Counted from the first letter of the stretch, positions 562 through 12,040 are shown. The stretch: 64,000 bases of DNA from Parcubacteria group bacterium (GCA_028286525.1 JAQBRL010000016.1:17924-81923), one strand, 5' to 3'. Made by a program: numbers and translations. Notes: a model not told the origin generated them from the sequence alone.

Positions 562-912
562 ATGGATACGACACATTTTCGCGATCTTCTAACGCAAGAG
601 AAGACTACGCTTGAAGCCCAGCTTGCGACCGTCGGCCGCAAGAATCCCTCGAACCCTGCTGATTGGGAAGCGGTTCCTTCCGAGACGGGGCAAGAAGCCG
701 ATCCGAACGATCGCGCGACCGTTCTCGACACGTACGGGGAGAACACCGCCATCCTTACCGACCTAGAAATTCGTTTAGGGGAAGTGAACGCAGCACTCGT
801 ACGCATCGAAGCCGGAACTTACGGCGTCTGTCCGATCGGCGGAGAAGAGATAGAGATCGAACGCCTGACCGCAGACCCAGCAGCAAATACCTGCAAGGCT
901 CATTTGGTCTAA
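562..912 (+). CDS. DksA/TraR-family C4 zinc-finger protein
   Basis: 116 aa; C-terminal CPIGGEEIEIERL...C..H arrangement typical of TraR/DksA zinc finger; coiled-coil N-term. Confidence 0.5.
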   Translation: MDTTHFRDLLTQEKTTLEAQLATVGRKNPSNPADWEAVPSETGQEADPNDRATVLDTYGENTAILTDLEIRLGEVNAALVRIEAGTYGVCPIGGEEIEIERLTADPAANTCKAHLV

Positions 913-924
913 CGCAGGAGCGTT

Positions 925-2514
925 ATGCAGACGCGCGGCCTCCGGCCGCGCGTCTTGCGTTACAATAAGCACGTGGCCGCTCGCACCGCCCCACCCAAAA
1001 TAGAGACGCATGGCTATGCGCGCCTGTTCGCCGCACAGCCGCTCGGCGCTTCCGCTGAACTCGTCACCATCGAGGTGGATTTGACGCGCGGACTGCATTC
1101 TTTTTCCATAGTCGGGCTCGCCGATAAGGCGGTGGAGGAAGCGCGTGACCGCATCGCTGCGGCGATACGGCACAGCGGTTTCAAATCCCCGAAATCGGAG
1201 AATCGCCGCATCGTACTCTCGCTTTCGCCCGCGGACCTCAAGAAGGAGGGGTCGCATTACGACCTCGCGCTCGCGCTCGGGTATCTCGCGGCCCAAGGCG
1301 AGTTCGAACTCCCTGCGGAAGCAGCACTCTTCGCAGGCGAGCTTTCGCTCGACGGGAGACTCCGCACCACCCGCGGCATCCTTCCGCAGGTGCTTGCGGC
1401 AGCGCGGGCCGGATTCAAGACGGTATACGTCCCGCCCGGAAACGCGGAAGAAGCCCTCCTTGCGCCGGGGGTCACGGTATACGCGCCTGCGACGCTCAAG
1501 GAACTCATCGAACACCTGAACGGAACCGCTCCCCTCGTTCCTGCCACGAGCACGCATGACCGAGCCACGCCAAAGCCGCTGGTGGACCTCGCTGATATTA
1601 AAGGACAAGAGAGCGCGAAGCGTGCGCTCGAGATCGCTGCCGCCGGACGGCATAATCTCGTACTGTATGGGCCGCCCGGCACCGGCAAAACCCTGCTCGC
1701 GCGAGCCCTAGCAGGCATTCTTCCGCCTTTAACGCCCGACGAAGTGCTCGAAGTCACGGCGATACATTCCACGGCAGGGACGCTGCGCGAAGGGGCGCTA
1801 TTCCATCCGCCCTTGCGCGCGCCACATCACACCATATCGCATACGGCGATGGTAGGTGGGGGAGCGTATCCGCGCGCGGGCGAAGTAACGCTGGCGCACA
1901 AAGGCATTCTCTTTCTGGACGAGTTCCCGGAATTCGACGCACGCACCCTGGAAGCGCTTCGGCAGCCGCTCGAGGACCGGGTCGTGACGGTCTCGCGCGC
2001 TCGTGCGAGCATCACGTTTCCTGCCGACTGCATGGTGGTCGCCGCCATGAATCCGGCAGACACGCTTTCAGCTGATGCAGAAGTGGCCGTGCGGCAGGCC
2101 CTCAAGCAAGCGCGCAAGATATCTCGTCCCATCGCTGACCGTCTCGATCTGTGGATAGAAGTCCCGCACATTCCGCACGAAGCCCTCGCGCAGCTGGGCG
2201 AAGGGGAGTCCTCCGAAGCGGTACGCGCGCGGGTGGCGGGTGCACGTGCGCGCATGCAGGCCCGTGCCGGTACCGATGTAGTGAACGCGCGGCTGACGCC
2301 GCGCGAGCTCACCGAGAGCAGTGGATTCACCGAAGAGGCGAAGCAAGCGTTGCTTAGTGCGGCGACTAAGCTCGATCTGTCTCCGCGAGCGTACCACCGC
2401 GTGATGCGGGTCGCTCGTACTATCGCGGACCTGGCCGGCGCAGGCAGCGTCACCTCGGCCCATATCTTCGAATCGCTGCAGTACCGCCCGCGCGGCATGT
2501 TCGGATTCGAATGA
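925..2514 (+). CDS. comM: YifB/ComM Mg-chelatase-like AAA+ ATPase
   Basis: 529 aa; Walker [16 protein letters not shown], ChlI/MCM-like core, C-terminal ComM helix-turn-helix region. Confidence 0.8.
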
Positions 2515-4035
2515 TCACGTCAGAATCGGGTCGGCATAGAGTCCATGGGTCAGATCCTCTTTTGCTGCCCATTTTTGCAATCGTGAACCTACCTTCTCGA
2601 GTCGCGTGTCCGGTGGCGTAGCGTTCGTTATGAATACTCGTACGACCTTAAGCGGAAGCTCCGACTGCAAGTCAGCGACGATAATCTCATGACCCATATC
2701 CTTCAGACGCTTCAAGAGCGTCTCGATTGAATCGATCTCTTTATCGGGTTGCCAGGTAACGGGAGAAGGCGTAAGCACATGCTCTAGGTGCGTACGATAG
2801 AGCGGATCCGACCACGCGAGTTCCGGCTTTCCGAGTACTCCTGTTACGCTGACCACCTCTTTCCATTGGAAATGTTCGTTGAGTACGACATCGAGTCCCG
2901 CATACATCTGCACCGTTTCGCATACGGCGCGTGCAACGGCGACTTCCCAGCTGAACGATGCGCCCGTTCCATGCGAGAACGCAGGGATACCTCCTCTTGT
3001 ATCCATAAGGACCGCATGCGCTATAGGTACGCCCCAGTCGAGCGACATATCTTTAAGTACTAGCTTGAATCCAAGGGTTTCGAGAAGACGCACTATCTCT
3101 TGTATCGTGGGATCGAGAGCAGGAAGCAATCCAAGATCTATGTCCGGACCGTTGATGCGGCAGCGCATCGTTATCCAATACGCGTCTCTCTCGAGGACCT
3201 CGAAGATTCCGCTGAGTGTCGCATCTTCGAGCGATGCACCGGCGGCGAGCCCCATGGTGTGATGGAGGGAAAAGAGCCGAGTCCTGGTCAATTTCGGTAT
3301 GTATTCGTAATAGGCGAGTTCAGCAGGCACGAAGCAGTCTTCATCGCGGGAAATATTTCGCGCAGGAATCCACTCGGTGAGTTGGGCGCTCGAGAAAGCA
3401 TCTCGAGGACCCGTGAGTTCCCCGAGATCCCAATTCTTTCGATGGTACAGATGCTCATAGGTGTCGATAGAAATACGATTCCGCGCCTGTTCGCCCGGTC
3501 CGATACCTGTCACGCGTTCAACCCCTTCCGCGAGCGCTGACCTGATCGCCTGCTCTTCGGTTATGCCTTTGCCTTCTGCAATGACCCCACCGTCTGCGTC
3601 ATGAAGATAAAAGACCGGACAAAGCGCATCGAAAGCATTTTTAAGAAATGTTCTTTTCCCGAGACTGAATCCGCTCTGCTGTAACCCGGACTCGACACTC
3701 TTCCAGTCGATGCTCGTCTTGTTCATTGAAGTCCGTGTGCCTTTGTTCTCAATGTCAGAAAAGACCAATTCGAGGGAGGGCTCGGCTGATTTCTCCCGCG
3801 TACCTTCGAATTGAAAACCCTCGGTCGCGCAGAATGCCTCAAGAAGAGCGGCCTGCTCGGTCTCTTTCGGAGAGAGGGAAGGCGGAAGGAATCCATGGAT
3901 CTTTTTATATGAGAATGCATCAAGAAGCCGTCGAGCTTCCTCGATTTTGTATACCGAAAGTATTTCGGCTCCATCAGGCAATGAATAGATTCCCTTACCT
4001 GGGAAGAAGGTGATGTATCGCTCGTGATTAGTCAT
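2515..4035 (-). CDS. ycaO: YcaO-domain protein
   Basis: 506 aa; YcaO ATP-binding signature GKGITEEQAIRSALAEGVERVTG and EVLERDA motif; C-terminal extension. Confidence 0.75.
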   Translation of the reverse strand: MTNHERYITFFPGKGIYSLPDGAEILSVYKIEEARRLLDAFSYKKIHGFLPPSLSPKETEQAALLEAFCATEGFQFEGTREKSAEPSLELVFSDIENKGTRTSMNKTSIDWKSVESGLQQSGFSLGKRTFLKNAFDALCPVFYLHDADGGVIAEGKGITEEQAIRSALAEGVERVTGIGPGEQARNRISIDTYEHLYHRKNWDLGELTGPRDAFSSAQLTEWIPARNISRDEDCFVPAELAYYEYIPKLTRTRLFSLHHTMGLAAGASLEDATLSGIFEVLERDAYWITMRCRINGPDIDLGLLPALDPTIQEIVRLLETLGFKLVLKDMSLDWGVPIAHAVLMDTRGGIPAFSHGTGASFSWEVAVARAVCETVQMYAGLDVVLNEHFQWKEVVSVTGVLGKPELAWSDPLYRTHLEHVLTPSPVTWQPDKEIDSIETLLKRLKDMGHEIIVADLQSELPLKVVRVFITNATPPDTRLEKVGSRLQKWAAKEDLTHGLYADPILT

Positions 4036-4044
4036 TTTCTAGAG

Positions 4045-4077
4045 CAGTAAGGCCACTTCGAAGAAGCGGCCTTACTG
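4045..4077 (-). promoter_or_regulatory. perfect 10-bp stem-loop (CAGTAAGGCC / GGCCTTACTG) 7 nt upstream of ycaO start codon
   Basis: seen directly; loop itself contains CTTCGAAG palindrome; no U-tract after it on the minus strand. Confidence 0.4.
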
Positions 4078-4099
4078 GTACGGATGCGTGGCGCGGACG

Positions 4100-4279
4100 C
4101 TACGCGAGTCCGTAGGAACTTTCTCCCTGGCCAGCCATAAGCGACCGGCTAGAGGTGCGAAGGCTCGAGGCCTGATCCTGTCCCACCGTGATGGAGGCAG
4201 AAGAGACCTGACCTTGGCCCGCCATCAAGGGATACATGGTCTTTCCTTGGGCAGCGGTAAAACCGAGACGTTTTTGCAT
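4100..4279 (-). CDS. candidate small ORF (59 aa, Gly/Gln/Ser-rich) immediately upstream of ycaO, same strand
   Basis: ATG..TAG hand-translated MQKRLGFTAAQGKTMYPLMAGQGQVSSASITVGQDQASSLRTSSRSLMAGQGESSYGLA; below 60-aa cutoff of ORF track; position relative to YcaO is the only support. Confidence 0.2.
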   Translation of the reverse strand: MQKRLGFTAAQGKTMYPLMAGQGQVSSASITVGQDQASSLRTSSRSLMAGQGESSYGLA

Positions 4280-4330
4280 ACGCGGTCTCGTTAATTGCTA
4301 AGTGCTTCACCAGAACCTATCTAGTGATGC

Positions 4331-4358
4331 TTGTAAATACTAGGGTGAGGCGTATAAT
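4331..4358 (+). promoter_or_regulatory. sigma70-like promoter TTGTAA-16-TATAAT for TrmB-family regulator gene
   Basis: near-consensus hexamers about 65 nt upstream of the GTG start; AT-rich island in GC-rich DNA. Confidence 0.45.
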
Positions 4359-4421
4359 ATGTCATATCCGTCGACATGCACTCATAAAACGTCCTTTCTA
4401 TGACAAAAAATAAGGAAATAC

Positions 4422-5198
4422 GTGTTGTCAGTAACGCCGACAGAAATTAACTGCATGAATCAGCAGAACAGTTTTCAGATATCGCTTGAGGGCCTCGGAC
4501 TTAGCGAAAACGAGTCCCGAGTCTACCTTTCCATGCTTTCGCTCGGTCCCGCGAGCATTTTGAACATATCCAAGGCTGCCGACGTGAATAGGACCACTAT
4601 CTATAACGTGATCGAGAACCTGAATCGGAAGGGGCTTACTCGAGTCGATGCGCAGGGCTTCAAGAAATTGTATGTGGCTGAGCACCCCCGGAGGCTGGAA
4701 ACGATGCTCGAACGCAGAAAAGACGATTTCAAAGAGCTTTTCCCTGAATTAGAAGCCCTCTTTAACCTGAAGGGCGGCCAATCCTTCGTTCGATATTACG
4801 AAGGGTCCGAGTCCGTGCGGAATCTGTACTTCGATCTGCTCGATGAGCTCGAGCATAACGAAGAATTCCTCGTCATCGGCGACCCTGAGAAATGGGAACA
4901 GGTGAACAAGAGCTTCGGCGCTGAATTCATCAAGCAGCGCAACAAACGGAAGCTCCGCATTCGGATGATGCTGACGGATTCGGAGACAGGGCGGAAATAT
5001 AAGCAGTTCGAGCGGAATTTCCAAGAAGAGATCAAGTTCCTTCCTGCCGATTCGCGCATCGACACCAATCTGGTCATCACCTTGCGGAAGATCCTTATCC
5101 AACAGATGGTGAACCCGATAGTAGCCGTCACTATCGAGACGGGCAGCATCGTTACTATGCATCAAGAACTGTTCAATGTGATGTGGCGCACCTTATAG
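4422..5198 (+). CDS. TrmB-family transcriptional regulator
   Basis: 258 aa; N-terminal winged HTH LSENESRVYLSMLSLGPASILNISKAADVNRTTIYNVIENLNRKGL; AAGGAA RBS upstream; divergent from ycaO. Confidence 0.6.
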   Translation: MLSVTPTEINCMNQQNSFQISLEGLGLSENESRVYLSMLSLGPASILNISKAADVNRTTIYNVIENLNRKGLTRVDAQGFKKLYVAEHPRRLETMLERRKDDFKELFPELEALFNLKGGQSFVRYYEGSESVRNLYFDLLDELEHNEEFLVIGDPEKWEQVNKSFGAEFIKQRNKRKLRIRMMLTDSETGRKYKQFERNFQEEIKFLPADSRIDTNLVITLRKILIQQMVNPIVAVTIETGSIVTMHQELFNVMWRTL

Positions 5199-6970
5199 CG
5201 CGTTATACTTCTCGTATGCAAGTCACCGAAAGCGAACTGAAAACATTCATCCTCGATTCTGGACTCGTACCGCGCAAGGACGTGGACGCGGCCGACGAAG
5301 AGGCGAAGAAACGTAATCAATCCATCGGCGACATACTCGTCTCGCAAGGCGCACTGACGTCCGACGCATTGCGCCGCATCAAGGCGTACGTGCTCGGCAT
5401 TCCATTCGTGAATCTCAAGGATAAGAAGATACCGCTCGAGGTGCTCTCGCTCATCCCGGAACCTATCGCGCGCACGCATAGCATCATCGGCTTCCGCAAA
5501 GAGGGGAATGAGCTGGAGGTCGCCATGCTCGATACGCAGGACCTTCCCGCCATCGACTCGGTGCGCAAGAAGACGGGGCTGAAGATATTGCCGCGCCTCA
5601 CCGACGACGAATCGCTCAAGCATGCCCTCATGCAGTACCAGAAGTCGCTGAAGGAGGAGTTCGGCGACCTCATCGCCACCGAAGCGGGACGCATCAACGT
5701 CGTGAAGGACGCGAGCGGAGACGACGTTACGGGAGAAGAGCTCAAGAAGATGGCGGAAGACCTGCCCATCGTCCGCATCGTCGATACGCTTCTGCGCCAC
5801 GCCATCATCCAAGACGCGTCCGATATCCATATCGAACCAATGGAAGAGGCGACCCTCGTGCGGTATCGCATCGACGGTATCCTGCACGACGCGATGACGC
5901 TTCCGAAGAATGCGGGTCCGGGCATCACCGCACGCATCAAAGTGCTCGCCAACCTCAAGCTCGACGAGAAGCGCCTGCCGCAAGATGGTCGGTTCAAGAT
6001 GGAGACCGATGCCGATAAGGTCTCGTTCCGCGTGTCGCTCCTCCCGACCTATTACGGCGAGAAGATCGTGATGCGTCTTCTGCGCGAGACGGGAGAGGGC
6101 TTCACGCTCGAAGCGCTCGGCTTCCATGGCGAGAGCCTCGAGCGCATCCATTCGGCGACGAAGCAGACCACCGGCATCATCCTCATATCGGGGCCGACCG
6201 GTTCCGGTAAGACGACGACGCTGTATACCGTGCTCGATATCCTGAATCGTCCGGACGTGAATATTTCCACCATCGAGGACCCTATCGAGTACCAGATGAA
6301 GCGCGTGAACCAGACGCAGGTGAACCCCACCATCGGCTTTACCTTCGCGTCGGGACTCCGCGCCCTCCTGCGCCAGGACCCGAACGTCATCATGGTGGGA
6401 GAGATACGCGACGGTGAAACGGCATCGCTCGCCATCAATGCGGCGCTCACCGGACACATCGTGCTTTCCACTATCCATACGAACTCTGCCGCAGGCGCTA
6501 TTCCGCGCCTCATGGATATGGGCGTCGAACCGTTCCTTCTCGTCTCTACGCTCCGCCTGGTCGTGGGGCAGCGTCTTGTCCGTCGCCTCTGCGACGACAA
6601 GGAGCAGTACACGCTTGATGATAAGGAACGTGCCAAAGTCGCTCCCGCTGAGAAATTCGACGCGGCATTCAAGTCGCTCGAAGACGAAAAGCTCGTGAAA
6701 GAAGGGAGCAAACTCGACACGCTCCCGTTCTATCATCCGAAACCGTCAGGAGAATGCGAGGACGGCTATAAGAGCCGTATCGGTATCCACGAGATCCTTA
6801 CGGTATCCCCCGCGATACGCGAATTGATACTGCACAGCGAAGGACCCGACGCGGTGGAAGCGCAGGCACGCAAGGAAGGCATGCTCACCATGCTCGAAGA
6901 CGGACTCTACAAAGCGGCGCGGGGCATTACCTCGCTTGAGGAAGTGTTGCGCGCAGTGAACGACGGATAA
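5183..6970 (+). CDS. pilB: type IV pilus assembly ATPase PilB (GspE family)
   Basis: 595 aa; GspE N-domain, Walker A SGPTGSGKTTTL, Asp/His boxes, VGEIRD motif; true start may be ATG 5216. Confidence 0.85.
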   Translation: MAHLIARYTSRMQVTESELKTFILDSGLVPRKDVDAADEEAKKRNQSIGDILVSQGALTSDALRRIKAYVLGIPFVNLKDKKIPLEVLSLIPEPIARTHSIIGFRKEGNELEVAMLDTQDLPAIDSVRKKTGLKILPRLTDDESLKHALMQYQKSLKEEFGDLIATEAGRINVVKDASGDDVTGEELKKMAEDLPIVRIVDTLLRHAIIQDASDIHIEPMEEATLVRYRIDGILHDAMTLPKNAGPGITARIKVLANLKLDEKRLPQDGRFKMETDADKVSFRVSLLPTYYGEKIVMRLLRETGEGFTLEALGFHGESLERIHSATKQTTGIILISGPTGSGKTTTLYTVLDILNRPDVNISTIEDPIEYQMKRVNQTQVNPTIGFTFASGLRALLRQDPNVIMVGEIRDGETASLAINAALTGHIVLSTIHTNSAAGAIPRLMDMGVEPFLLVSTLRLVVGQRLVRRLCDDKEQYTLDDKERAKVAPAEKFDAAFKSLEDEKLVKEGSKLDTLPFYHPKPSGECEDGYKSRIGIHEILTVSPAIRELILHSEGPDAVEAQARKEGMLTMLEDGLYKAARGITSLEEVLRAVNDG

Positions 6971-7012
6971 TACCGGCGGGTACGCGTATCAGCGCGTGCT
7001 AAACTTTTTCCA

Positions 7013-8230
7013 ATGAAGTTCCGCGTGAAGCTGAAGACGGAGAACGGGACCGAGGAGACGCGCATCATGGATACGTTGTCGCGTTTCGCCGTATATGGCG
7101 ACGCTGAAAAAGAAGGAGCCACCGTTATTTCCATAGAAGAAGGAGGGGCGAAGGGGCTCTCGCTCGGAAAGATCGCTTCGTTCAATATCGGGAGCGGTAT
7201 CAAGACGGAAGAACGCATCACGCTGACGAAAAACCTTTCAGCGATGCTTTCAGCGGGTCTCACGCTTTCGCGCGCGCTCGCGGTCATCGAGCGGCAAAGC
7301 CGCAATAAGAACCTCAAGAAGGTCGTTTCCGACCTCGAGGAGCAGGTGAAGAAGGGCACGTCCTTCCATGAAGCGCTGATGCTGCACGCGAAGATCTTCT
7401 CCAAGCTCTTCATTGCGATGACCAAGGCCGGCGAAGAGTCCGGTACGCTCGCGGATGCGCTCAAGGTGGTCGCGCGGCAGATGGACCGCTCGTACACGCT
7501 CGAAAAGAAGATCCGCGGCGCCATGATCTATCCGGGCATCATCCTTTCGGCCATCGTTGTCATCGGTATCCTCATGCTCATATACGTGGTGCCGACCCTC
7601 TCGAGCACGTTCAAGGAACTGGGTGTCGCGCTCCCGCTTGCGACGCGCATCATCGTGAATGCGTCCGACTTCATGGCGCACCACGTGCTGGAGGTGTTCG
7701 GCATCGTAGCGGTCTTCTTCGGGAGCATATTCGCTTTCACTCACTCAAAATTCGGAGGGCACGTCATCCTCGCGGTTTCCCTGCAATTACCCGTTATCGG
7801 GGACCTCGTGCGCGAGACATTCGCCGCACGCGCCGCACGCGCACTCGCCTCGCTTCTGGCGTCTGGCGTTGAAATGCTTTCCGCCGTCGAAATAGCCGCT
7901 GAAGTGGTGGGCGATAACTCGTTCGGTAAAGTGGTGACCGAGGCGGGTACGCGCGTGAGAAAGGGCGAAGCGCTTTCGGCAGCGTTCGCGGATCACCCGA
8001 AGCTCTATCCCTTCTTCATCGCCGATATGATCGCCGTGGGCGAAGAGACCGGAAAGGTCGCCGACATGCTAGGACAGGTTGCCGACTACTACGAAACGGA
8101 TGTCGAAGATCGCACCAAAGATCTCTCCACCATCATCGAACCGATGCTTATGCTCGTGATCGGCGTCGCGGTCGGTATCTTCGCGCTCGCCATGATCACT
8201 CCTATTTACTCCCTTTCCTCGAAGATCTAA
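7013..8230 (+). CDS. pilC: type IV pilus inner-membrane platform protein PilC (GspF family)
   Basis: 405 aa; two GspF repeats, three TM segments, immediately downstream of pilB. Confidence 0.85.
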   Translation: MKFRVKLKTENGTEETRIMDTLSRFAVYGDAEKEGATVISIEEGGAKGLSLGKIASFNIGSGIKTEERITLTKNLSAMLSAGLTLSRALAVIERQSRNKNLKKVVSDLEEQVKKGTSFHEALMLHAKIFSKLFIAMTKAGEESGTLADALKVVARQMDRSYTLEKKIRGAMIYPGIILSAIVVIGILMLIYVVPTLSSTFKELGVALPLATRIIVNASDFMAHHVLEVFGIVAVFFGSIFAFTHSKFGGHVILAVSLQLPVIGDLVRETFAARAARALASLLASGVEMLSAVEIAAEVVGDNSFGKVVTEAGTRVRKGEALSAAFADHPKLYPFFIADMIAVGEETGKVADMLGQVADYYETDVEDRTKDLSTIIEPMLMLVIGVAVGIFALAMITPIYSLSSKI

Positions 8231-8256
8231 AGGATTCGGTGCGTTATCATACCTGC

Positions 8257-9972
8257 ATGGCCTCTCGTCCGGCACGCGGTCTTTCCATGATAGATGTGGT
8301 GGTGGGTTCCGCCCTCATCCTGCTCATCTTCCTCTCGCTCACCAGTCTGCTGCGAGCGTCGCTCCTCGTGTCGTCGCTCGCGAAAGCGAAGGCAGGCGCG
8401 ACCGCGGTCGCGAACACGCAGATGGAATACATCCGCTCGCTTCCGTACGATTCCGTGGGTACCGTGGGCGGTATCCCTGCCGGAACCATTCCCCAGACCG
8501 CGACTACCACCGAGAACAGTATTCCCTACGGCGTGCGCACGTTCATTGAATACGTGGATGACCCTGCGGACGGCACCGGTGCGGCAGATACGAACAGCAT
8601 AACGACCGACTATAAGCGCATCAAAGTGGCCGTCACGTATACCGTCCACCAGAAGCTCCGCGAGGTGGATCTGGTATCCAATTACACTCCCGCTTCGATC
8701 GAAACGACCACGGGCGGGGGAACGCTGAAGGTACAGGTAGTCAATCGGAGCGGGGTGGGTGTCGCGGGGGCGACCGTGCATGTCGTGAACACGAGCACGA
8801 GTCCTGCGGTGGACGTCACGACCTTTTCGGACGCGACTGGTGTGGTGCTGCTCGGCGGGGCGGCGACCTCGACCCAATATCAGGTATTCGTATCGAAGAA
8901 CGGCTATTCGAGCACCCAGACGTATGCGCGCGACGTCACGAACCAGAACCCGACGCCGGGCTACCTGACGGTGGTGAAGAATACGACCACGACGGGCACA
9001 TTCCCGATCGACCTCCTTGCCTCGCTTACGCTCGGCACGTATTACCCCGTGCAGGCGACTTCGACCATCGACACCTTTGCGAACAGCACGAAACTCGCCT
9101 CGCAAACCGGGACGGCCGTTACCGGAGGATCGCTCTCGCTCGCGCAGGATGTAAATGGGTACCTAGCGAGCGGGTCGGCGCAATCGATCTCTATTTCGCC
9201 CGCACTGCTCGTGTCATGGACGACCGCGAGTACGACGCTTTCGGCTCCGGCCGGCACGACCGTAACGGTCCAGGTACTCGATGGAAGCGGGGCCCTCCTT
9301 CCGGACGCGGTACTCGCAGGCAATAGCGCCGGCTTCTTCGGAAGTTCGATCAATCTTTCGGGAGTATCGACCACCACTTATCCGTCCCTCGCCCTGCGGG
9401 CGAATCTTACGACCACTTCCACCAGCACCTCGCCTGCGGTCGCGACCTGGAGCGTAAATTCGCTCGTCGGACCGATACCGATACCGAACGTCGCGCTCGC
9501 GCTTGCGGGCGCGAAAACCATCGGGTCGACGGGAGCGGGGGCGCCCATCTATAAGACGAGCGTCGCCGCTACGACGAATGCGTCCGGCATCGCCGCGCTC
9601 TCGCTTGAATGGGACTCGTATTCCTTATCGCTTACCGGCTACGACATCGTCGATGCCTGTTACGCCGCGCCCTACGCGCTGCTGCCGGGGACCAATACCA
9701 CCAACAATCTTTTCCTGGACGTTAATACCTCGAATTCGGCGCTCGTCTCCGTACGCGATAGTAGCGGAGCGACCGTCGCCGGCGCGACCGTGACCGTGTC
9801 GAAAGCCGGATTCACGCAGGATAGCGTGACGAGCGCCTGCGGAGCGGCATACTTCGGCGCGCTTGCGAGCGGCGCCTACACTGTCACCATAACCAAGGCC
9901 GGATACACCACCACCTCCTACCCGAACGTCACGGTAGCCGGAGACACGTTCTACCCCACTTCATTCCCCTAG
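8257..9972 (+). CDS. large prepilin-like protein (minor pilin / pilus-associated adhesin candidate)
   Basis: N-terminus ARG-LSMIDVVVGSALILLIFLSL resembles class III signal with Asp at +5; rest is long Thr/Ser/Gly/Val-rich beta-type sequence; GTG at 8239 is alternative start. Confidence 0.5.
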   Translation: MASRPARGLSMIDVVVGSALILLIFLSLTSLLRASLLVSSLAKAKAGATAVANTQMEYIRSLPYDSVGTVGGIPAGTIPQTATTTENSIPYGVRTFIEYVDDPADGTGAADTNSITTDYKRIKVAVTYTVHQKLREVDLVSNYTPASIETTTGGGTLKVQVVNRSGVGVAGATVHVVNTSTSPAVDVTTFSDATGVVLLGGAATSTQYQVFVSKNGYSSTQTYARDVTNQNPTPGYLTVVKNTTTTGTFPIDLLASLTLGTYYPVQATSTIDTFANSTKLASQTGTAVTGGSLSLAQDVNGYLASGSAQSISISPALLVSWTTASTTLSAPAGTTVTVQVLDGSGALLPDAVLAGNSAGFFGSSINLSGVSTTTYPSLALRANLTTTSTSTSPAVATWSVNSLVGPIPIPNVALALAGAKTIGSTGAGAPIYKTSVAATTNASGIAALSLEWDSYSLSLTGYDIVDACYAAPYALLPGTNTTNNLFLDVNTSNSALVSVRDSSGATVAGATVTVSKAGFTQDSVTSACGAAYFGALASGAYTVTITKAGYTTTSYPNVTVAGDTFYPTSFP

Positions 9973-9973
9973 C

Positions 9974-10555
9974 ATGAAAGCCTTTACCCTTATCGAGGTC
10001 ATCGTGCTCATTGCCGTCACGGGACTCCTGGGCCTCACCATTAACACGCTTATCGTGAACTTCTATCGTTCGAATGCCTATCTCATTCAAGAGACGTCCG
10101 CCATAGATAGTGCGCATCGCGGCCTCCGGGTCTCGTTCGAGGATCTCCGTGAAGCTTCGTACGGCGACGACGGATCGTATCCCATCAAGAGCGCCGCGAC
10201 CTCCACCATCACCTTCTTCAGCGACGTGGACAATGATGGGTCGGTCGAGCGCATACGGCTCTATCTGACGAATGGCACCCTGTATCGCGGGGTGACCGAT
10301 TCCATTTCGGCTCCCCCCAGCTATACCGGACAGCCGGAAGCGACGACCACCATTGCGACCTACGTGCGCAACAGCAGTACCACGCCGCTGTTCCGCTATT
10401 ACGACAGCGATGGTAGCGAGCTCTCGACGACGACTGCGATCGATATATCGCAGATCGCTTCCGTATCCACGACCGTGCTCGTCGACATCAATCCTTTCCG
10501 CGCACCTGATATCCTTACCCTTACGGAAACAGCGACCCTCCGCAACTTACGATGA
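9974..10555 (+). CDS. type IV pilin / pseudopilin
   Basis: MKA-FTLIEVIVLIAVTGLLGL canonical N-terminal pilin helix with Glu+5; 193 aa. Confidence 0.65.
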   Translation: MKAFTLIEVIVLIAVTGLLGLTINTLIVNFYRSNAYLIQETSAIDSAHRGLRVSFEDLREASYGDDGSYPIKSAATSTITFFSDVDNDGSVERIRLYLTNGTLYRGVTDSISAPPSYTGQPEATTTIATYVRNSSTTPLFRYYDSDGSELSTTTAIDISQIASVSTTVLVDINPFRAPDILTLTETATLRNLR

Positions 10556-11967
10556 ACCATCCTCCCCGTGGCTATTTAATGCTCCTCGCCCTCGTATTCG
10601 GGTCGATATTCCTGACGGTTCTCTTCGCGATGTCCAGTTACGTGCTGGTCGAGAACAAGCTCCAGACCGCGCAGACGGACAAAAGCAAAGGGCTCGCTAT
10701 CGCGGAAGCGGGAGTCGAATACTACAAATGGCATCTCGCTCATTTCCCGAACGATCTACAGAACGGAACCGGAGCTGCAGGTCCGTATTCCATTCCCTAC
10801 ACGGACCCGGAGGGAGGACAGACGGGTACGATTTCCCTTACGGTGAACGGCAATAACGCATGCGGCAATATCACCTCGGTCGACCTTCAGTCGGTAGGAA
10901 CTCCGACCGGCAGCGGAAGCTCCGCCACTATCTATGCCCGCTATGCGCGCCCTTCGGTCGCCCAATACTCCTATATCATCAACGACTCGGTATGGGCGGG
11001 AGCCGACCGCATCATTTCCGGTCCCTATCATTCCAATGGGGGAGTGCGTATGGACGGCACAGCCAACGCCCCGGTAACGAGTTCGCTCGCAACGTGGTCG
11101 TGCACGTCCTCCTACGGGTGCAGCCCGACCGCAACCAAGAATGGGGTCTTCGGCAGCGGACCGAATCAGACGCTCTGGAGCTACCCGACGCCCCAGATAG
11201 ATTTCACCGCTATCGCTGCCGACTTCACCTCCATTAAGAACATCGCCATCGCGCAAGGCCGCTATTTCACCCGCTACAGCTCCGGTACTTCAGGCGTCTC
11301 CGCCTTCAAGGGCTATCATCTCGTGTTCAATGCGAATAACACGGTCACGGTCTATACCGTATCGAACGAGTACAATACCAATATCGGTGCGGCGATAGAC
11401 GGTTCGAGCGACACGTCGGATTATGCGCGCATCCGGTCGGAGTCGCTGGTAGGGACCTACGCGATCAGTGCCACGTGCCCGCTTATCTATGTCGAAGATA
11501 ACGTATGGATCGAAGGAACGGTGGCCTCGAAAGTTACGGTCGTGGCCGCCAACACCGTGACCGCAGGGGTATCGCCGAACGCTATGATTCCGAACAATAT
11601 CACCTACACCTCGAGTACCGGCAGTGCAGGGCTTACCCTCATCGCCGAGAACGACATCCTTATCACGCCGGACTCTCCCAACAATCTGACGATCAATGGC
11701 ATTTTCATAGCGCAGGGAGGCGCGTTCGGTAGGAATTATTACGGCTGTCCGAGTGCGTTCGAGCCCCGCGGGACGCTTACCCTCACGGGTACGACCGTCT
11801 CTAATAAGCGTACCGGTACGAAATGGGTCAACGGTTGCGGAGGCGGAAGCGACGCGGGCTACCAGACGCGTATCGACTCCTTTGACCGCAAGCTCTCTAC
11901 CAGCCCTCCGCCATTCACCCCGTTCACCTCGACGGACTATAAATTCGTGGATTGGCGCCAGAAATAG
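10552..11967 (+). CDS. PilX-like minor pilin with large C-terminal domain
   Basis: N-terminus PRG-YLMLLALVFGSIFLTVLFAMSSYVLVENKLQTAQ matches PilX_N-type hydrophobic helix; start overlaps previous stop (ATGA). Confidence 0.5.
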   Translation: MNHPPRGYLMLLALVFGSIFLTVLFAMSSYVLVENKLQTAQTDKSKGLAIAEAGVEYYKWHLAHFPNDLQNGTGAAGPYSIPYTDPEGGQTGTISLTVNGNNACGNITSVDLQSVGTPTGSGSSATIYARYARPSVAQYSYIINDSVWAGADRIISGPYHSNGGVRMDGTANAPVTSSLATWSCTSSYGCSPTATKNGVFGSGPNQTLWSYPTPQIDFTAIAADFTSIKNIAIAQGRYFTRYSSGTSGVSAFKGYHLVFNANNTVTVYTVSNEYNTNIGAAIDGSSDTSDYARIRSESLVGTYAISATCPLIYVEDNVWIEGTVASKVTVVAANTVTAGVSPNAMIPNNITYTSSTGSAGLTLIAENDILITPDSPNNLTINGIFIAQGGAFGRNYYGCPSAFEPRGTLTLTGTTVSNKRTGTKWVNGCGGGSDAGYQTRIDSFDRKLSTSPPPFTPFTSTDYKFVDWRQK

Positions 11968-12040
11968 GCTGTTCGGTGTGGGATTTTTGAGTACGCGTCG
12001 TCCGTCCCTGCGGCCGGACGCACTCCCTCTTGCCGTCGCA

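What the first reader, a model, noticed from the sequence alone, without database searches (positions are those of the whole stretch)
2515..5198. YcaO-domain gene with upstream stem-loop, candidate 59-aa leader ORF and divergent TrmB regulator (possible RiPP-like locus)
The YcaO protein (GKGITEEQAIRSALAEGVERV, EVLERDA) has no TfuA or dehydrogenase partner in the window. A perfect 10-bp stem-loop sits 7 nt upstream of its ATG. About 22 nt further upstream, on the same strand, is an ATG..TAG ORF of 59 aa (Gly/Gln/Ser/Thr-rich, no Cys) that the ORF track missed because of its size. A TrmB-family regulator with a near-consensus promoter is transcribed divergently. A precursor followed by a hairpin attenuator and then the modifying enzyme is the classical layout of RiPP operons. 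YcaO enzymes can install azolines on Ser/Thr or backbone thioamides and amidines. Alternatively this is an E. coli-type housekeeping YcaO.
Basis: partly seen in the sequence, partly recalled or inferred. Interest (0 to 1): 0.55.

Follow-up and report, generated by a model that had tools for sequence, protein, structure and literature searches.

The report
New YcaO peptide family in Parcubacteria
A small, previously unnamed gene encoding a peptide with three copies of a glutamine-centred motif sits in front of a peptide-modifying (YcaO) enzyme gene. The same pair recurs in many uncultured bacteria, so this is very probably a new kind of enzyme-modified peptide whose chemistry is still unknown.

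Summary
The window has a 506-aa YcaO (2515-4035, -), a 15-bp hairpin (4045-4077), a 59-aa ORF (4100-4279, -) and a divergent TrmB-family regulator.

The small ORF is a real, conserved gene. A small ORF directly upstream of the YcaO carries 2-5 copies of h-[M/F]-A-[G/A]-Q-[G/A]-K-x-x-[Y/F] in 16 Parcubacteria-type loci. It carries one copy in 7 loci from Proteobacteria and Gemmatimonadota.

- Across 32 motif copies the amino acids are kept while third codon positions are randomised.
- A peptide-first search returned only peptides lying beside this YcaO clade.
- The YcaO is not E. coli-type, and it scores below the SagD and McrA cut-offs.
- It ends in an invariant DPILT, and its 105-residue N-terminal domain has no known relative.
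- No TfuA, E1-like or dehydrogenase partner is conserved.
- The motif has no conserved Cys, Ser or Thr, so the usual azoline chemistry is unlikely.

Most likely the YcaO activates a backbone amide at A-x-Q-G, with the Gln carboxamide or sulfide as the attacking group. The chemistry itself is inferred, not shown.

Two TGTC-N9-GACA palindromes, the only two in 64 kb, mark probable TrmB operators. The three-gene module is the lowest-GC stretch of the window.

Verdict: a new variant of YcaO-dependent RiPP system, product unknown.

The parts
2515..4035 (-). YcaO-domain enzyme, 506 aa. It has a family-specific N-terminal domain (about residues 1-105), the YcaO domain at 155-469, and an invariant C-terminus ..DPILT.
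   Evidence: Pfam PF02624 E = 2.7e-59. TIGR00702 scores 93.5, above its 75.65 cut-off, while the SagD, McrA and S12 models score below theirs. The ATP-binding residues E170, E173, R174, E279, R283 and D284 are invariant in 19 homologues. AF2 model pLDDT 87.5, with a YcaO fold.
4045..4077 (-). 15-bp stem, 3-nt loop hairpin between the peptide gene and the YcaO gene, 9 nt before the YcaO ATG. No U-tract.
   Evidence: An equivalent hairpin, with a different sequence, is present in L038, L001, L004, L006, L019 and L021. In the WIN/L038/L001 alignment, 6 of 14 pairs show compensatory changes and none is broken.
4100..4279 (-). 59-aa candidate precursor peptide MQKRLGFTAAQGKTMYPLMAGQGQVSSASITVGQDQASSLRTSSRSLMAGQGESSYGLA. 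It is basic (pI 10.0) and has no Cys.
   Evidence: Homologous repeat peptides lie upstream of the YcaO in 16 Parcubacteria-type loci. Alignment A3.
4241..4258 (-). Motif copy 1: T8-A-A-Q11-G-K13.
   Evidence: DNA core 4245-4255.
4208..4225 (-). Motif copy 2: M19-A-G-Q22-G-Q24.
   Evidence: DNA core 4212-4222.
4121..4138 (-). Motif copy 3: M48-A-G-Q51-G-E53.
   Evidence: DNA core 4125-4135.
4337..4365 (-). Promoter-like site for the peptide-YcaO operon: ATGACA-17-TAGTAT.
   Evidence: 9 of 12 matches. This is a consensus match only.
4360..4376 (.). Palindrome TGTCATATCCGTCGACA, candidate TrmB operator O2. It overlaps the -35 of the operon promoter.
   Evidence: TGTC-N9-GACA occurs only twice in 64 kb. 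The site is conserved at the same position in L001, L004, L019 and L012 and in L038.
4426..4442 (.). Palindrome TGTCAGTAACGCCGACA, candidate TrmB operator O1, just upstream of the TrmB ATG at 4455.
   Evidence: The site is conserved in L001, L004, L006, L010, L019, L021, L030 and L038.
4331..4358 (+). Promoter-like site for the regulator: TTGTAA-16-TATAAT.
   Evidence: 10 of 12 matches.
4455..5198 (+). TrmB-family wHTH regulator, 247 aa from ATG 4455 (258 aa if translated from GTG 4422), transcribed divergently.
   Evidence: PF01978 E = 1.4e-15. A divergent TrmB gene is present in all Parcubacteria-type loci that have upstream DNA.

Best explanation
This is a compact, regulated, three-gene RiPP-like cassette.

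Shown by comparison: the 59-aa ORF is a translated, conserved peptide with three copies of the motif h-[M/F]-A-[G/A]-Q-[G/A]-x-x-x-[Y/F]. It is genetically locked to one particular clade of standalone YcaO enzymes.

Inferred: the peptide is the substrate of that YcaO. The enzyme has intact ATP-binding residues. It binds each motif directly, since the Parcubacteria peptides have almost no leader. It then activates a backbone amide within A-x-Q-G by ATP-dependent O-phosphorylation.

The conserved motif has no Cys, Ser or Thr, so the attacking group is not the usual one. My preferred reading is that the invariant Gln side-chain carboxamide attacks, giving a cyclic amidine-type ring at each motif. 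This would be analogous to the reported Asn-to-pyrimidone reaction of another YcaO. The main alternative is sulfide, giving a backbone thioamide without TfuA.

Expression (inferred): a TrmB-family repressor binds two TGTC-N9-GACA palindromes in the 175-bp divergent control region. The hairpin between the peptide gene and the YcaO gene keeps peptide message and translation in excess over the enzyme.

The cassette has the lowest G+C of the window and variable flanks elsewhere, so it was probably acquired horizontally. The fate and role of the product are unknown; no protease or exporter is linked.
For: Conservation of the pair:
- A motif peptide lies directly upstream of, and co-oriented with, the YcaO in the window and in L001, L004, L006, L010, L011, L012, L019, L021, L023, L025, L030, L034, L035, L037 and L038.
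- A single-motif ORF occupies the same position in 7 non-CPR loci, for example ..CVVAGQAKSNYFFV* in a gammaproteobacterium and ..GCIVAGQAKGHYCHL* in Longimicrobium.

Coding signal:
- In 32 motif copies the amino acids are conserved while synonymous codons are evenly used: Ala GCT 8, GCC 8, GCA 8, GCG 5; Gln CAG 17, CAA 15; Lys AAG 11, AAA 10.
- L012 and L023 differ at codon positions 1/2/3 in the ratio 3/10/26.

Specificity:
- Only 1 of 1351 open segments in the window has two or more motifs.
- The peptide-first profile search returned 11 small proteins, and every one with context lies in the order TrmB, peptide, YcaO.

Enzyme:
- It has the YcaO fold with invariant ATP-binding residues.
- It is below the cut-offs of the SagD, McrA and S12 models.
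- About 65 representatives at 50% identity form the full-length family, which shares the ..P-I-L-T C-terminus.
- No TfuA, ThiF/E1 or nitroreductase gene is seen in the flanks of 8 loci.

Chemistry constraint: the peptides have zero Cys, and Ser/Thr are not conserved.

Precedents: YcaOs are reported to 'install nucleobase-like modifications' (Pei et al. cited). Standalone YcaOs acting on motif-repeat precursors that lack Cys/Ser/Thr-rich regions are known from streptamidine.

Regulation: the only two TGTC-N9-GACA sites in 64 kb lie in the control region and are conserved in relatives.

Hairpin: z = -5.8 (window) and -6.4 (L038), with 6 compensatory pairs.

G+C: 0.516 against a window mean of 0.576 (sd 0.019), the minimum of the window.
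Against: - There are no expression, proteomic or mass-spectrometry data, so modification of the peptide is inferred from gene linkage alone.
- No linked protease, exporter or immunity gene was found.
- No Shine-Dalgarno-like sequence of note precedes either the peptide or the YcaO start.
- The N-terminal domain has an RRE-like order of strands and helices (three strands, then helices), but it gave no significant fold or sequence match, so a peptide-recognition domain is not demonstrated.
- A Gln-derived ring would be 7-membered if Gln attacks the preceding carbonyl. To my knowledge that has no precedent, and the closest solved sequence relative is a thioamide-forming enzyme, MJ1094.
- One family member (L033) has no peptide or TrmB gene, apparently after an insertion carrying a recombinase.
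- Start codons of the non-CPR small ORFs were not verified, except for L013.
Confidence: 0.75

Rival explanations
1. Same cassette and same substrate, but the chemistry is TfuA-independent backbone thioamidation at the motif. Gln would serve only as a recognition residue.
For: - The best-scoring solved sequence is MJ1094, the TfuA-independent McrA-thioamidating YcaO (108 bits), and 6peu/6pe3 are among the top fold matches.
- The second-best NCBIfam model is the McrA thioamidation family.
- EcYcaO thioamidates uL16 without TfuA.
- No partner is needed, which fits a one-enzyme cassette.
Against: - TIGR03266 scores 120 bits against a cut-off of 365.
- LynD, a cyclodehydratase, is an equally good fold match.
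- An invariant Gln flanked by small residues resembles a reactive residue more than a recognition residue.
- No sulfur-transfer gene is linked.
Confidence: 0.3
2. Canonical LAP/TOMM system: the YcaO makes oxazolines from the Ser/Thr residues of the peptide.
For: - The best NCBIfam hit is the SagD-type TOMM cyclodehydratase model.
- JGI labels some homologues 'thiazole/oxazole-forming peptide maturase SagD family'.
- 'LAP' clusters have been reported in CPR genomes.
- The window peptide has 14 Ser/Thr residues.
Against: - TIGR03604 scores 134.6 against a cut-off of 219.
- Ser/Thr are not conserved, and the repeat units of L006 contain none.
- The peptides have no Cys.
- No E1-like/Ocin-ThiF partner or dehydrogenase is present in any locus.
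- The C-terminus is ..DPILT, not the PxPxP motif of azoline-forming YcaOs (the motif is from my own knowledge: Dunbar 2014; Burkhart 2017).
Confidence: 0.05
3. The small ORF is a regulatory leader peptide. Its translation, together with the hairpin, attenuates YcaO expression, and the YcaO acts on some other, unlinked protein.
For: - The order ORF, hairpin, gene resembles attenuators.
- The hairpin lies 9 nt from the YcaO start.
- No protease or exporter is linked.
Against: - In L010, L011, L012, L025, L030, L034, L035 and L037 the peptide gene abuts the YcaO gene (0-24 nt apart) with no hairpin, yet the motif is kept.
- The motif is conserved across phyla, in 2-5 copies or as a single copy near the end of the ORF, which is not a feature of known attenuation leaders.
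Confidence: 0.07
4. Housekeeping YcaO of the E. coli type (ribosomal protein uL16/uS12-associated). The small ORF would be a chance ORF, or the repeats would be DNA or RNA elements such as regulator-binding sites.
For: The YcaO is mildly acidic (pI 5.2). The repeats lie near a regulator gene.
Against: - NF040716 scores 51.5 against a cut-off of 700, and EcYcaO is a weaker match than the archaeal and cyanobactin YcaOs.
- Third codon positions are randomised while the amino acids are conserved, and the DNA copies share only 11 nt at about 82%.
- No Rfam family matches the region.
- The actual palindromic operator candidates lie elsewhere, in the intergenic region.
Confidence: 0.03

Closest known systems
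Streptamidine-type ('ami') standalone-YcaO RiPP clusters of Actinobacteria and Firmicutes (Russell et al. 2021, PMC8442711)
   Same: - The YcaO is standalone.
- The precursor carries a conserved motif present one to three times.
- It has no Cys/Ser/Thr-rich region.
- The product is an amidine rather than an azole.
   Different: - The motifs differ (ALV.. / HLSATH).
- Those clusters also encode a hydrolase, a dehydrogenase, a conserved hypothetical protein and transporters.
- The streptamidine ring uses a free N-terminal amine.
- The taxa differ. Here only a TrmB regulator is linked, and Gln is the invariant residue.
Peptide-nucleobase hybrid pathway (Pei, Vior, Zhu, Truman, Nair, Nat Chem Biol 2024/25; cited; paper not held, details from my own knowledge)
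   Same: A YcaO uses a side-chain carboxamide (Asn) as the attacking group on an activated backbone amide. This is the only precedent I know for the chemistry proposed here for Gln.
   Different: - The residue is Asn, giving a six-membered pyrimidone, whereas Gln would give a different ring size.
- That pathway needs an RRE protein, a dehydrogenase, a His in the substrate and an esterase (SpyE). None of these is linked here.
TfuA-independent thioamide-forming YcaOs (M. jannaschii MJ1094 acting on McrA; E. coli YcaO acting on uL16, PMC13063428)
   Same: These are partner-less YcaOs, and MJ1094 is the closest solved sequence. No TfuA is linked.
   Different: Their substrates are large folded proteins encoded elsewhere, with no adjacent small ORF. 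Both family models score far below their cut-offs here.
LAP/TOMM clusters reported in CPR genomes (Sharrar et al. 2020, PMC7298704)
   Same: A YcaO lies beside a small ORF in Parcubacteria or Microgenomates, and automated tools would probably give this locus the same label.
   Different: 89 of those 110 clusters have a nitroreductase-type dehydrogenase, and their precursors have Ser/Cys cores. Here there is no dehydrogenase and no conserved Cys, Ser or Thr.
Bottromycin YcaOs
   Same: They are standalone YcaOs acting without an E1-like partner, one of them forming an amidine.
   Different: The bottromycin precursor has a single core with a follower peptide, the cluster is large, and the motif and taxon differ.

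Membership tests
YcaO superfamily (PF02624 / TIGR00702) | YcaO domain scoring above the curated cut-off | tested here: met
   PF02624 scores 201.6 bits (cut-off 25.7). TIGR00702 scores 93.5 (cut-off 75.65).
YcaO superfamily (PF02624 / TIGR00702) | Conserved ATP/Mg2+-binding acidic residues (ExxER-type motifs) | tested here: met
   E170, E173, R174, E279, R283 and D284 are invariant in 19 homologues. The fold matches ATP-bound YcaO structures.
RiPP biosynthetic locus (generic) | Small precursor gene adjacent to and co-oriented with the modifying enzyme gene, conserved with it | tested here: met
   16 Parcubacteria-type and 7 other loci show it. The reciprocal peptide-first search agrees.
RiPP biosynthetic locus (generic) | Post-translational modification of the peptide actually occurs | not testable with these tools
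   This needs mass spectrometry of the co-expressed peptide and enzyme.
RiPP biosynthetic locus (generic) | Leader peptide and a RiPP recognition element (RRE) | tested here: inconclusive
RiPP biosynthetic locus (generic) | Linked protease and/or exporter | tested here: not met
   None is conserved in the flanks of 8 Parcubacteria loci. Some non-CPR loci have NCS1 or VUT transporters.
TOMM / LAP (azol(in)e-forming) | SagD-type cyclodehydratase (TIGR03604) above its cut-off | tested here: not met
   134.6 bits against a cut-off of 219.25.
TOMM / LAP (azol(in)e-forming) | Cys/Ser/Thr residues conserved in the core | tested here: not met
   The peptides have no Cys at all. Ser/Thr are not conserved, and the L006 repeat units have none.
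TOMM / LAP (azol(in)e-forming) | E1-like/Ocin-ThiF partner (separate or fused) and usually an FMN dehydrogenase | tested here: not met
   Neither appears in the Pfam annotations of the neighbours in 8 loci. The N-terminal domain is only about 105 aa and has no match.
TOMM / LAP (azol(in)e-forming) | C-terminal PxPxP motif (feature taken from my own knowledge of the literature) | tested here: not met
   The family ends in ..[D/x]-P-I-L-T.
YcaO-TfuA thioamide systems (thioamitides and others) | Adjacent TfuA gene | tested here: not met
   No TfuA is found in the flanks of any locus that has Pfam annotation. The whole window was not scanned.
McrA-glycine thioamidation YcaO (TIGR03266) | Equivalog model above its cut-off | tested here: not met
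   120.4 bits against a cut-off of 365.
E. coli-type YcaO (NF040716; uL16/uS12-associated) | Equivalog model above its cut-off, no adjacent small ORF, very acidic protein (pI about 4.4) | tested here: not met
   51.5 bits against a cut-off of 700. A conserved small ORF is adjacent. pI is 5.2, and 5.2-8.5 across the family.
TrmB family regulator | N-terminal TrmB wHTH domain (PF01978) | tested here: met
   57.3 bits against a cut-off of 25.6.
TrmB family regulator | Sugar-sensing TrmB/TrmBL1 equivalog (about 340 aa with a sugar-binding C-terminal domain) | tested here: not met
   NF047390 scores 35.6 against 650, and NF040851 scores 20.7 against 600. The protein is only 247 aa.
Intrinsic (rho-independent) terminator | GC-rich stem-loop followed by a U-tract | tested here: not met
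   The stem is present, but the tail is CUCUAGAAAAUG, and the terminator scan did not list it.

The most novel reading that the evidence does not exclude
This YcaO clade may carry out a reaction not yet described for the superfamily: ATP-dependent cyclisation of a glutamine side-chain carboxamide onto the peptide backbone. The product would be a diazepinone-type or glutarimide-type cyclic amidine. The reaction would occur at two to five sites per peptide and be recognised through the motif itself rather than through a leader. That would define a new RiPP class that is the characteristic small-peptide product of Parcubacteria, with single-motif, leader-bearing relatives in Proteobacteria and Gemmatimonadota linked to nucleobase- or vitamin-type importers.
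Probability: 0.3. Interest if true: 0.85.

Novelty: new variant of a known kind. Interest (0 to 1): 0.68.

Why it matters
YcaO enzymes are a main source of new peptide backbone chemistry, and most of the superfamily has no known substrate.

- This locus supplies a candidate enzyme-substrate pair for a whole uncharacterised clade, about 65 representatives at 50% identity. The short conserved target sequence, A-x-Q-G, contains none of the usual attacking residues, so it predicts either new chemistry on glutamine or partner-free thioamidation of a ribosomal peptide.
- The system is minimal (one peptide, one enzyme, one regulator) and can be tested directly by co-expression.
- It occurs in Parcubacteria, symbiotic bacteria with tiny genomes and almost no known specialised metabolism. 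A conserved, regulated and apparently mobile peptide cassette in them is a lead to how they interact with hosts or neighbours.
- The small gene is absent from Pfam and NCBIfam, and small ORFs are easily missed in annotation.

Tried and rejected
- DNA or RNA element instead of a peptide: rejected by the codon analysis, by the low DNA similarity of the copies, and by the absence of any Rfam match.
- Enlarging the family with the word-indexed search using alignment A1: only one new member, the 272-aa fragment P0026. The exhaustive HMMER search was needed.
- Looking up the window's own protein, P0001, for neighbour annotation: it is not on record, so TfuA or dehydrogenase genes elsewhere in the 64 kb were not excluded.
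- Known precursor families: Pfam and NCBIfam scans of 11 peptides found nothing apart from one sub-threshold hit that looks like chance.
- Defence-system membership: the YcaO has no PADLOC hit. Only an FRG-domain neighbour in alphaproteobacterial loci matches the candidate PDC-S15.
- Literature: searches for YcaO together with Parcubacteria, Patescibacteria, CPR, FRG or imidazolone, and for the motif strings themselves, found no description of this family. The Pei et al. paper could not be read.
- Resemblance of M-A-G-Q-G-K to the uL16 loop R-M-G-K-G-K-G (thioamidated by EcYcaO) and to the release-factor GGQ loop (from my own knowledge): I considered a mimicry idea but did not pursue it. The spacing differs and no test was available.


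Full report
**1. What is in the sequence**

On the minus strand, window 2515-4035 encodes a 506-aa protein with the quoted YcaO motifs. Pfam YcaO matches residues 155-469 (E = 2.7e-59).

Upstream on the same strand lie three elements:
- A hairpin with arms at 4045-4059 and 4063-4077. It has 15 pairs on the mRNA strand, one of them G-U, and a 3-nt loop. For the 81-nt piece, dG is -34.9 kcal/mol and z is -5.8.
- A 22-nt gap.
- A 59-aa ATG-to-TAG ORF at 4100-4279.

The hairpin ends 9 nt, not 7, before the YcaO ATG. Its tail is CUCUAGAAA, so it is not a canonical intrinsic terminator.

A TrmB-family gene (PF01978, E = 1.4e-15) is transcribed divergently. It has a TTGTAA-16-TATAAT promoter-like site at 4331-4358. 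A weaker opposing site, ATGACA-17-TAGTAT, lies at 4365-4337. Comparison with homologues places the TrmB start at ATG 4455 (247 aa) rather than GTG 4422.

An identical YcaO protein is on record from an NCBI metagenome-assembled 'Parcubacteria group bacterium'.

**2. The small ORF is a conserved, translated gene**

The YcaO has few relatives: 25 hits in the word-indexed search, nearly all from Parcubacteria/Paceibacterota metagenomes. I fetched their loci and examined the DNA upstream of each YcaO.

Every Parcubacteria-type locus with upstream DNA has a co-oriented small ORF. These ORFs are 37-68 aa long and carry two to five copies of one motif. They are the window and L001, L004, L006, L010, L011, L012, L019, L021, L023, L025, L030, L034, L035, L037 and L038.

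Examples:
- MNITATQGKQIFAAQGKAVFAGQGRQIFAAQGKQVYA (L006)
- MKTNYSVMAAQGKTAYPSIMAAQGKSVFPVMTGQGAGVFAKA (L019)
- MTNITKNNQYMVMAGQAKVSYLVMAGQAKATYAKVLTKMGSRYSQMSGQSKSVYAVSRARANNK (L012)

The window peptide has three copies (TAAQGK, MAGQGQ, MAGQGE). The consensus over 32 copies is [V/I/L]-[M/F]-A-[G/A]-Q-[G/A]-K-x-x-[Y/F], and Gln is invariant.

Four tests argue that this is selection on a protein rather than on DNA or RNA:
- Synonymous codons in the motif are used almost evenly: Ala GCT 8, GCC 8, GCA 8, GCG 5; Gln CAG 17, CAA 15; Lys AAG 11, AAA 10; all four Gly codons appear.
- The three DNA copies in the window share only an 11-nt core at about 82%.
- Two orthologous peptide genes (L012 and L023) differ at codon positions 1/2/3 in the ratio 3/10/26.
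- In the whole window, only 1 of 1351 open segments of 20-120 aa has two or more motif copies.

The reciprocal test also holds. A profile of 12 peptides (A3) was searched against 5.8 billion proteins and returned 11 small proteins. Every one with context available lies in the order TrmB (divergent), peptide, YcaO. Three of these loci were new.

One family member (L033) lacks both the peptide and the TrmB gene. Its upstream region is occupied by a serine recombinase and an unrelated 321-aa gene that overlaps the YcaO start, so this looks like a disrupted locus.

**3. The pair extends beyond the CPR**

More distant members of the same YcaO clade (29-38% identity) occur in MAGs labelled Gammaproteobacteria, Gemmatimonadales, Longimicrobium, Alphaproteobacteria and Acetobacteraceae. 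Related metagenome contigs were found as well.

Each has an upstream co-oriented open frame with a single motif copy:
- ..ALEQCVVAGQAKSNYFFV* (L013, an ATG-started 61-aa ORF)
- ..NGCLVAGQAKGHYCYVPAEPRL* (L014)
- ..VGCIVAGQAKGHYCHL* (L016)
- ..DGLYAAQGESTQSP.. (L015)
- ..HDLVAAQGKETSFPGAP.. (L018)
- ..DGLYAAQGQETYLPREP.. (L027/L028)
- ..DRIFAWQGKEVYVPKPP.. (L017)

In these ORFs the motif follows roughly 20-50 N-terminal residues, which is the classical leader-core layout. The Parcubacteria peptides are almost all repeats. Except for L013, the start codons of these non-CPR frames were not verified.

**4. The enzyme**

The AF2 model (pLDDT 87.5, pTM 0.91) has a YcaO fold. Its best PDB matches are LynD, the M. 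jannaschii and M. kandleri YcaOs, and MusD. E. coli YcaO and McbD rank lower.

A profile search of PDB sequences gives the same order: MJ1094 108 bits, MusD 83, TruD 81, LynD 76, MkYcaO 68, EcYcaO 56, McbD 25.

Against the NCBIfam models:
- SagD/TOMM scores 134.6 against a cut-off of 219.
- McrA thioamidation scores 120 against 365.
- The S12/E. coli type scores 51.5 against 700.
- Only the generic YcaO kinase-domain model passes.

The ATP-binding residues are invariant. Two features are specific to the family:
- An N-terminal domain of about 105 residues (three strands, then two long helices, with a conserved FFPGKG). It has no significant fold or sequence match.
- An invariant C-terminus ..DPILT, in place of the PxPxP tail that characterises azoline-forming YcaOs (the PxPxP feature is from my own knowledge).

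An exhaustive HMMER search of 1.84 billion representatives found about 65 full-length members with this C-terminus. The next-best matches belong to a different family, 600-690 aa long and ending in ..FS. The clade is therefore rare but phylogenetically scattered.

**5. What is and is not linked**

In the Parcubacteria loci only the TrmB, peptide and YcaO genes are conserved. The flanks vary: pilus ATPase, NusA, recombinases, an integrase and ribosomal proteins. None contains TfuA, a ThiF/E1-like protein, a nitroreductase, a protease or an exporter.

In the window, the module 2515-5198 has G+C of 0.516. That is the minimum among all 2.7-kb stretches of the window (mean 0.576, sd 0.019). With the variable flanks and the adjacent recombinases elsewhere, this suggests a mobile cassette.

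The non-CPR loci have no TrmB. They carry instead an NCS1 permease directly upstream of the peptide (L013, L014, L016, L017), or a VUT-family transporter plus an FRG-domain protein (L015, L018; FRG also in L017 and L027).

**6. Regulation**

TGTC-N9-GACA occurs exactly twice in the 64-kb window, at 4360-4376 and 4426-4442. Both sites lie inside the 175-bp control region, and the chance expectation is 0.67 per 64 kb.

GTC-N9-GAC sites sit at the same two positions, about 65 bp apart, in L001, L004 and L019. One such site is found in each of L006, L010, L012, L021 and L030. L038 has a GTC-N9-GAC site at each of the two positions.

O2 overlaps the -35 of the operon promoter and abuts the -10 of the regulator promoter. 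O1 lies just upstream of the TrmB ATG. The inference is that the TrmB-family protein represses both its own gene and the peptide-YcaO operon. The protein is 247 aa and is not a sugar-sensing TrmB equivalog.

The hairpin is present between the peptide and YcaO genes in the seven closer loci, with differing sequences. In the alignable trio of the window, L038 and L001, 6 of 14 pairs show compensatory double changes and none is broken. It is absent where the two genes are 0-24 nt apart.

I read the hairpin as a device that keeps peptide message and translation in excess over the enzyme, as described for other RiPP operons (my own knowledge). It is not essential to the system.

**7. Mechanism**

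Gene linkage, reciprocal specificity and motif conservation make the peptide the most likely substrate of this YcaO. This is inferred, not shown.

According, YcaOs work as follows. [quoted passage not shown] ATP-dependent phosphorylation and elimination of the leaving group then follow. The identity of the nucleophile determines the product.

The peptides have no Cys, and Ser/Thr are not conserved; the L006 repeats have none. Azoline formation therefore cannot be the conserved reaction. The candidates that remain are:
- The invariant Gln carboxamide, giving a cyclic amidine. The small residues required around it, especially G/A/S at +1, resemble the Gly-flanked reactive residues of other YcaO substrates. 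A YcaO that cyclises an Asn side chain to a pyrimidone has been reported (cited; details from my own knowledge).
- Sulfide, giving a thioamide, as with the partner-less M. jannaschii and E. coli enzymes.
- Lys or another amine. This is less likely, because Lys is not invariant.

I put about 0.75 on 'YcaO modifies this peptide'. Within that, I put roughly 0.4 on Gln cyclisation, 0.3-0.35 on thioamidation, and the rest on other chemistry.

**8. Comparison and novelty**

The system works like a minimal standalone-YcaO RiPP pathway. Its closest known relatives are streptamidine-type clusters (motif repeated one to three times, no Cys/Ser/Thr-rich region) and the Asn-to-pyrimidone pathway. It fails the defining tests for TOMM/LAP, YcaO-TfuA, McrA-type and E. 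coli-type systems (see the membership table).

The peptides match no Pfam or NCBIfam family. No paper in the searchable library mentions the motif or this clade. 'LAP' YcaO clusters in CPR genomes have been counted, but mostly with a dehydrogenase and Ser/Cys cores.

I therefore class this as a new variant of a known kind: a YcaO-dependent modified peptide with an undescribed precursor family and probably undescribed site chemistry.

**9. Limits**

- There is no experimental evidence of expression or modification.
- The product's fate and function are unknown.
- The N-terminal domain is unassigned.
- The rest of the window was not scanned for distant partner genes.
- The literature library excludes most subscription papers.

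Noticed in passing
window 2515-5198: The YcaO, peptide and TrmB module is the lowest-G+C 2.7-kb stretch of the whole 64-kb window: 0.516 against a mean of 0.576 (sd 0.019). The flanking genes are at 0.59-0.64. This suggests horizontal acquisition of the cassette.
   Followed up: partly
window 4422-4455: The mechanical ORF for TrmB starts at GTG 4422, but nine homologues align from the ATG at 4455 (247 aa). Candidate operator O1 (4426-4442) lies between the two starts, which favours 4455.
   Followed up: partly
window 4399-4405 and 4353-4366: An extra TATGACA half-site at 4399-4405 is complementary to the TGTCATA of operator O2 (inverted repeat I3, 14 nt, 79%). It may be a third regulator contact.
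   Followed up: no
window 4045-4054 versus 4429-4438: One arm of the hairpin (CAGTAAGGCC) is 90% identical to the core of operator O1 (CAGTAACGCC). This is probably chance and is unexplained.
   Followed up: no
window 5183-12000: A type IV pilus-like gene block follows TrmB. It has a PilB-type ATPase (5183-6970; T2SSE E = 1.6e-122) and then, judged by eye only and not searched, a PilC-like membrane protein (7013-8230), several prepilin-like ORFs, and a 577-aa Thr/Ser-rich protein (8239-9972). The same T2SSE neighbour is seen in L004 and L032.
   Followed up: no
window 562-2514: Upstream neighbours are a weak DksA/TraR zinc-finger protein (562-912) and a ComM/YifB-type Mg-chelatase-like ATPase (925-2514). 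The ATPase gene's stop abuts the YcaO stop, so the two genes converge.
   Followed up: no
L013 1968-3227; L016 2007-3269; L014 2077-3330; L017 2007-3344: In non-CPR relatives an NCS1-family permease (cytosine/purine/uracil/thiamine/allantoin type) lies directly upstream of the motif peptide. L013, L014 and L016 also have a 510-651 aa protein with no Pfam match in front of it (L013 versus L016: 23% identity, E = 6e-19; L014 was not compared).
   Followed up: partly
L015 723-2253; L018 6996-8505; L017 5345-6160; L027 5346-6215: Alphaproteobacterial loci carry a VUT-family transporter (Vut_1) and/or an FRG-domain protein near the YcaO. The L018 FRG protein matches the PADLOC candidate defence gene PDC-S15 (E = 1.6e-52). 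ORFs of 500-528 aa with no Pfam match follow the YcaO in L013, L018 and L027; L013 and L018 are not similar to each other.
   Followed up: partly
L033 395-3124: One family member has lost the peptide and the TrmB gene. A serine recombinase and an unrelated 321-aa ORF overlapping the YcaO start occupy the upstream region, and an Avd-like gene and a HEPN_AbiU2 gene lie downstream. This looks like a mobile-element insertion.
   Followed up: partly
L037 2081-2626: This YcaO copy has an in-frame stop (..DWEYI*TFLDKQG..) where the near-identical P0018 has Glu. It is a nonsense variant or a sequencing error.
   Followed up: no
proteins P0070-P0110: The next-nearest YcaO group in the exhaustive search is a separate family, mostly 550-690 aa long with a long N-terminal extension, most members ending in ..F-S. 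I did not look at what it is.
   Followed up: no
L001 2071-2814 and 3875-4618; L006 1-523 and 3851-4612: Two TrmB-family paralogues lie within a few kb of the YcaO in some loci.
   Followed up: no
L023 (2110-bp contig): The YcaO match spans 42-1991 while the peptide gene sits at 1633-1824 inside that range. The short contig appears permuted or misassembled.
   Followed up: no
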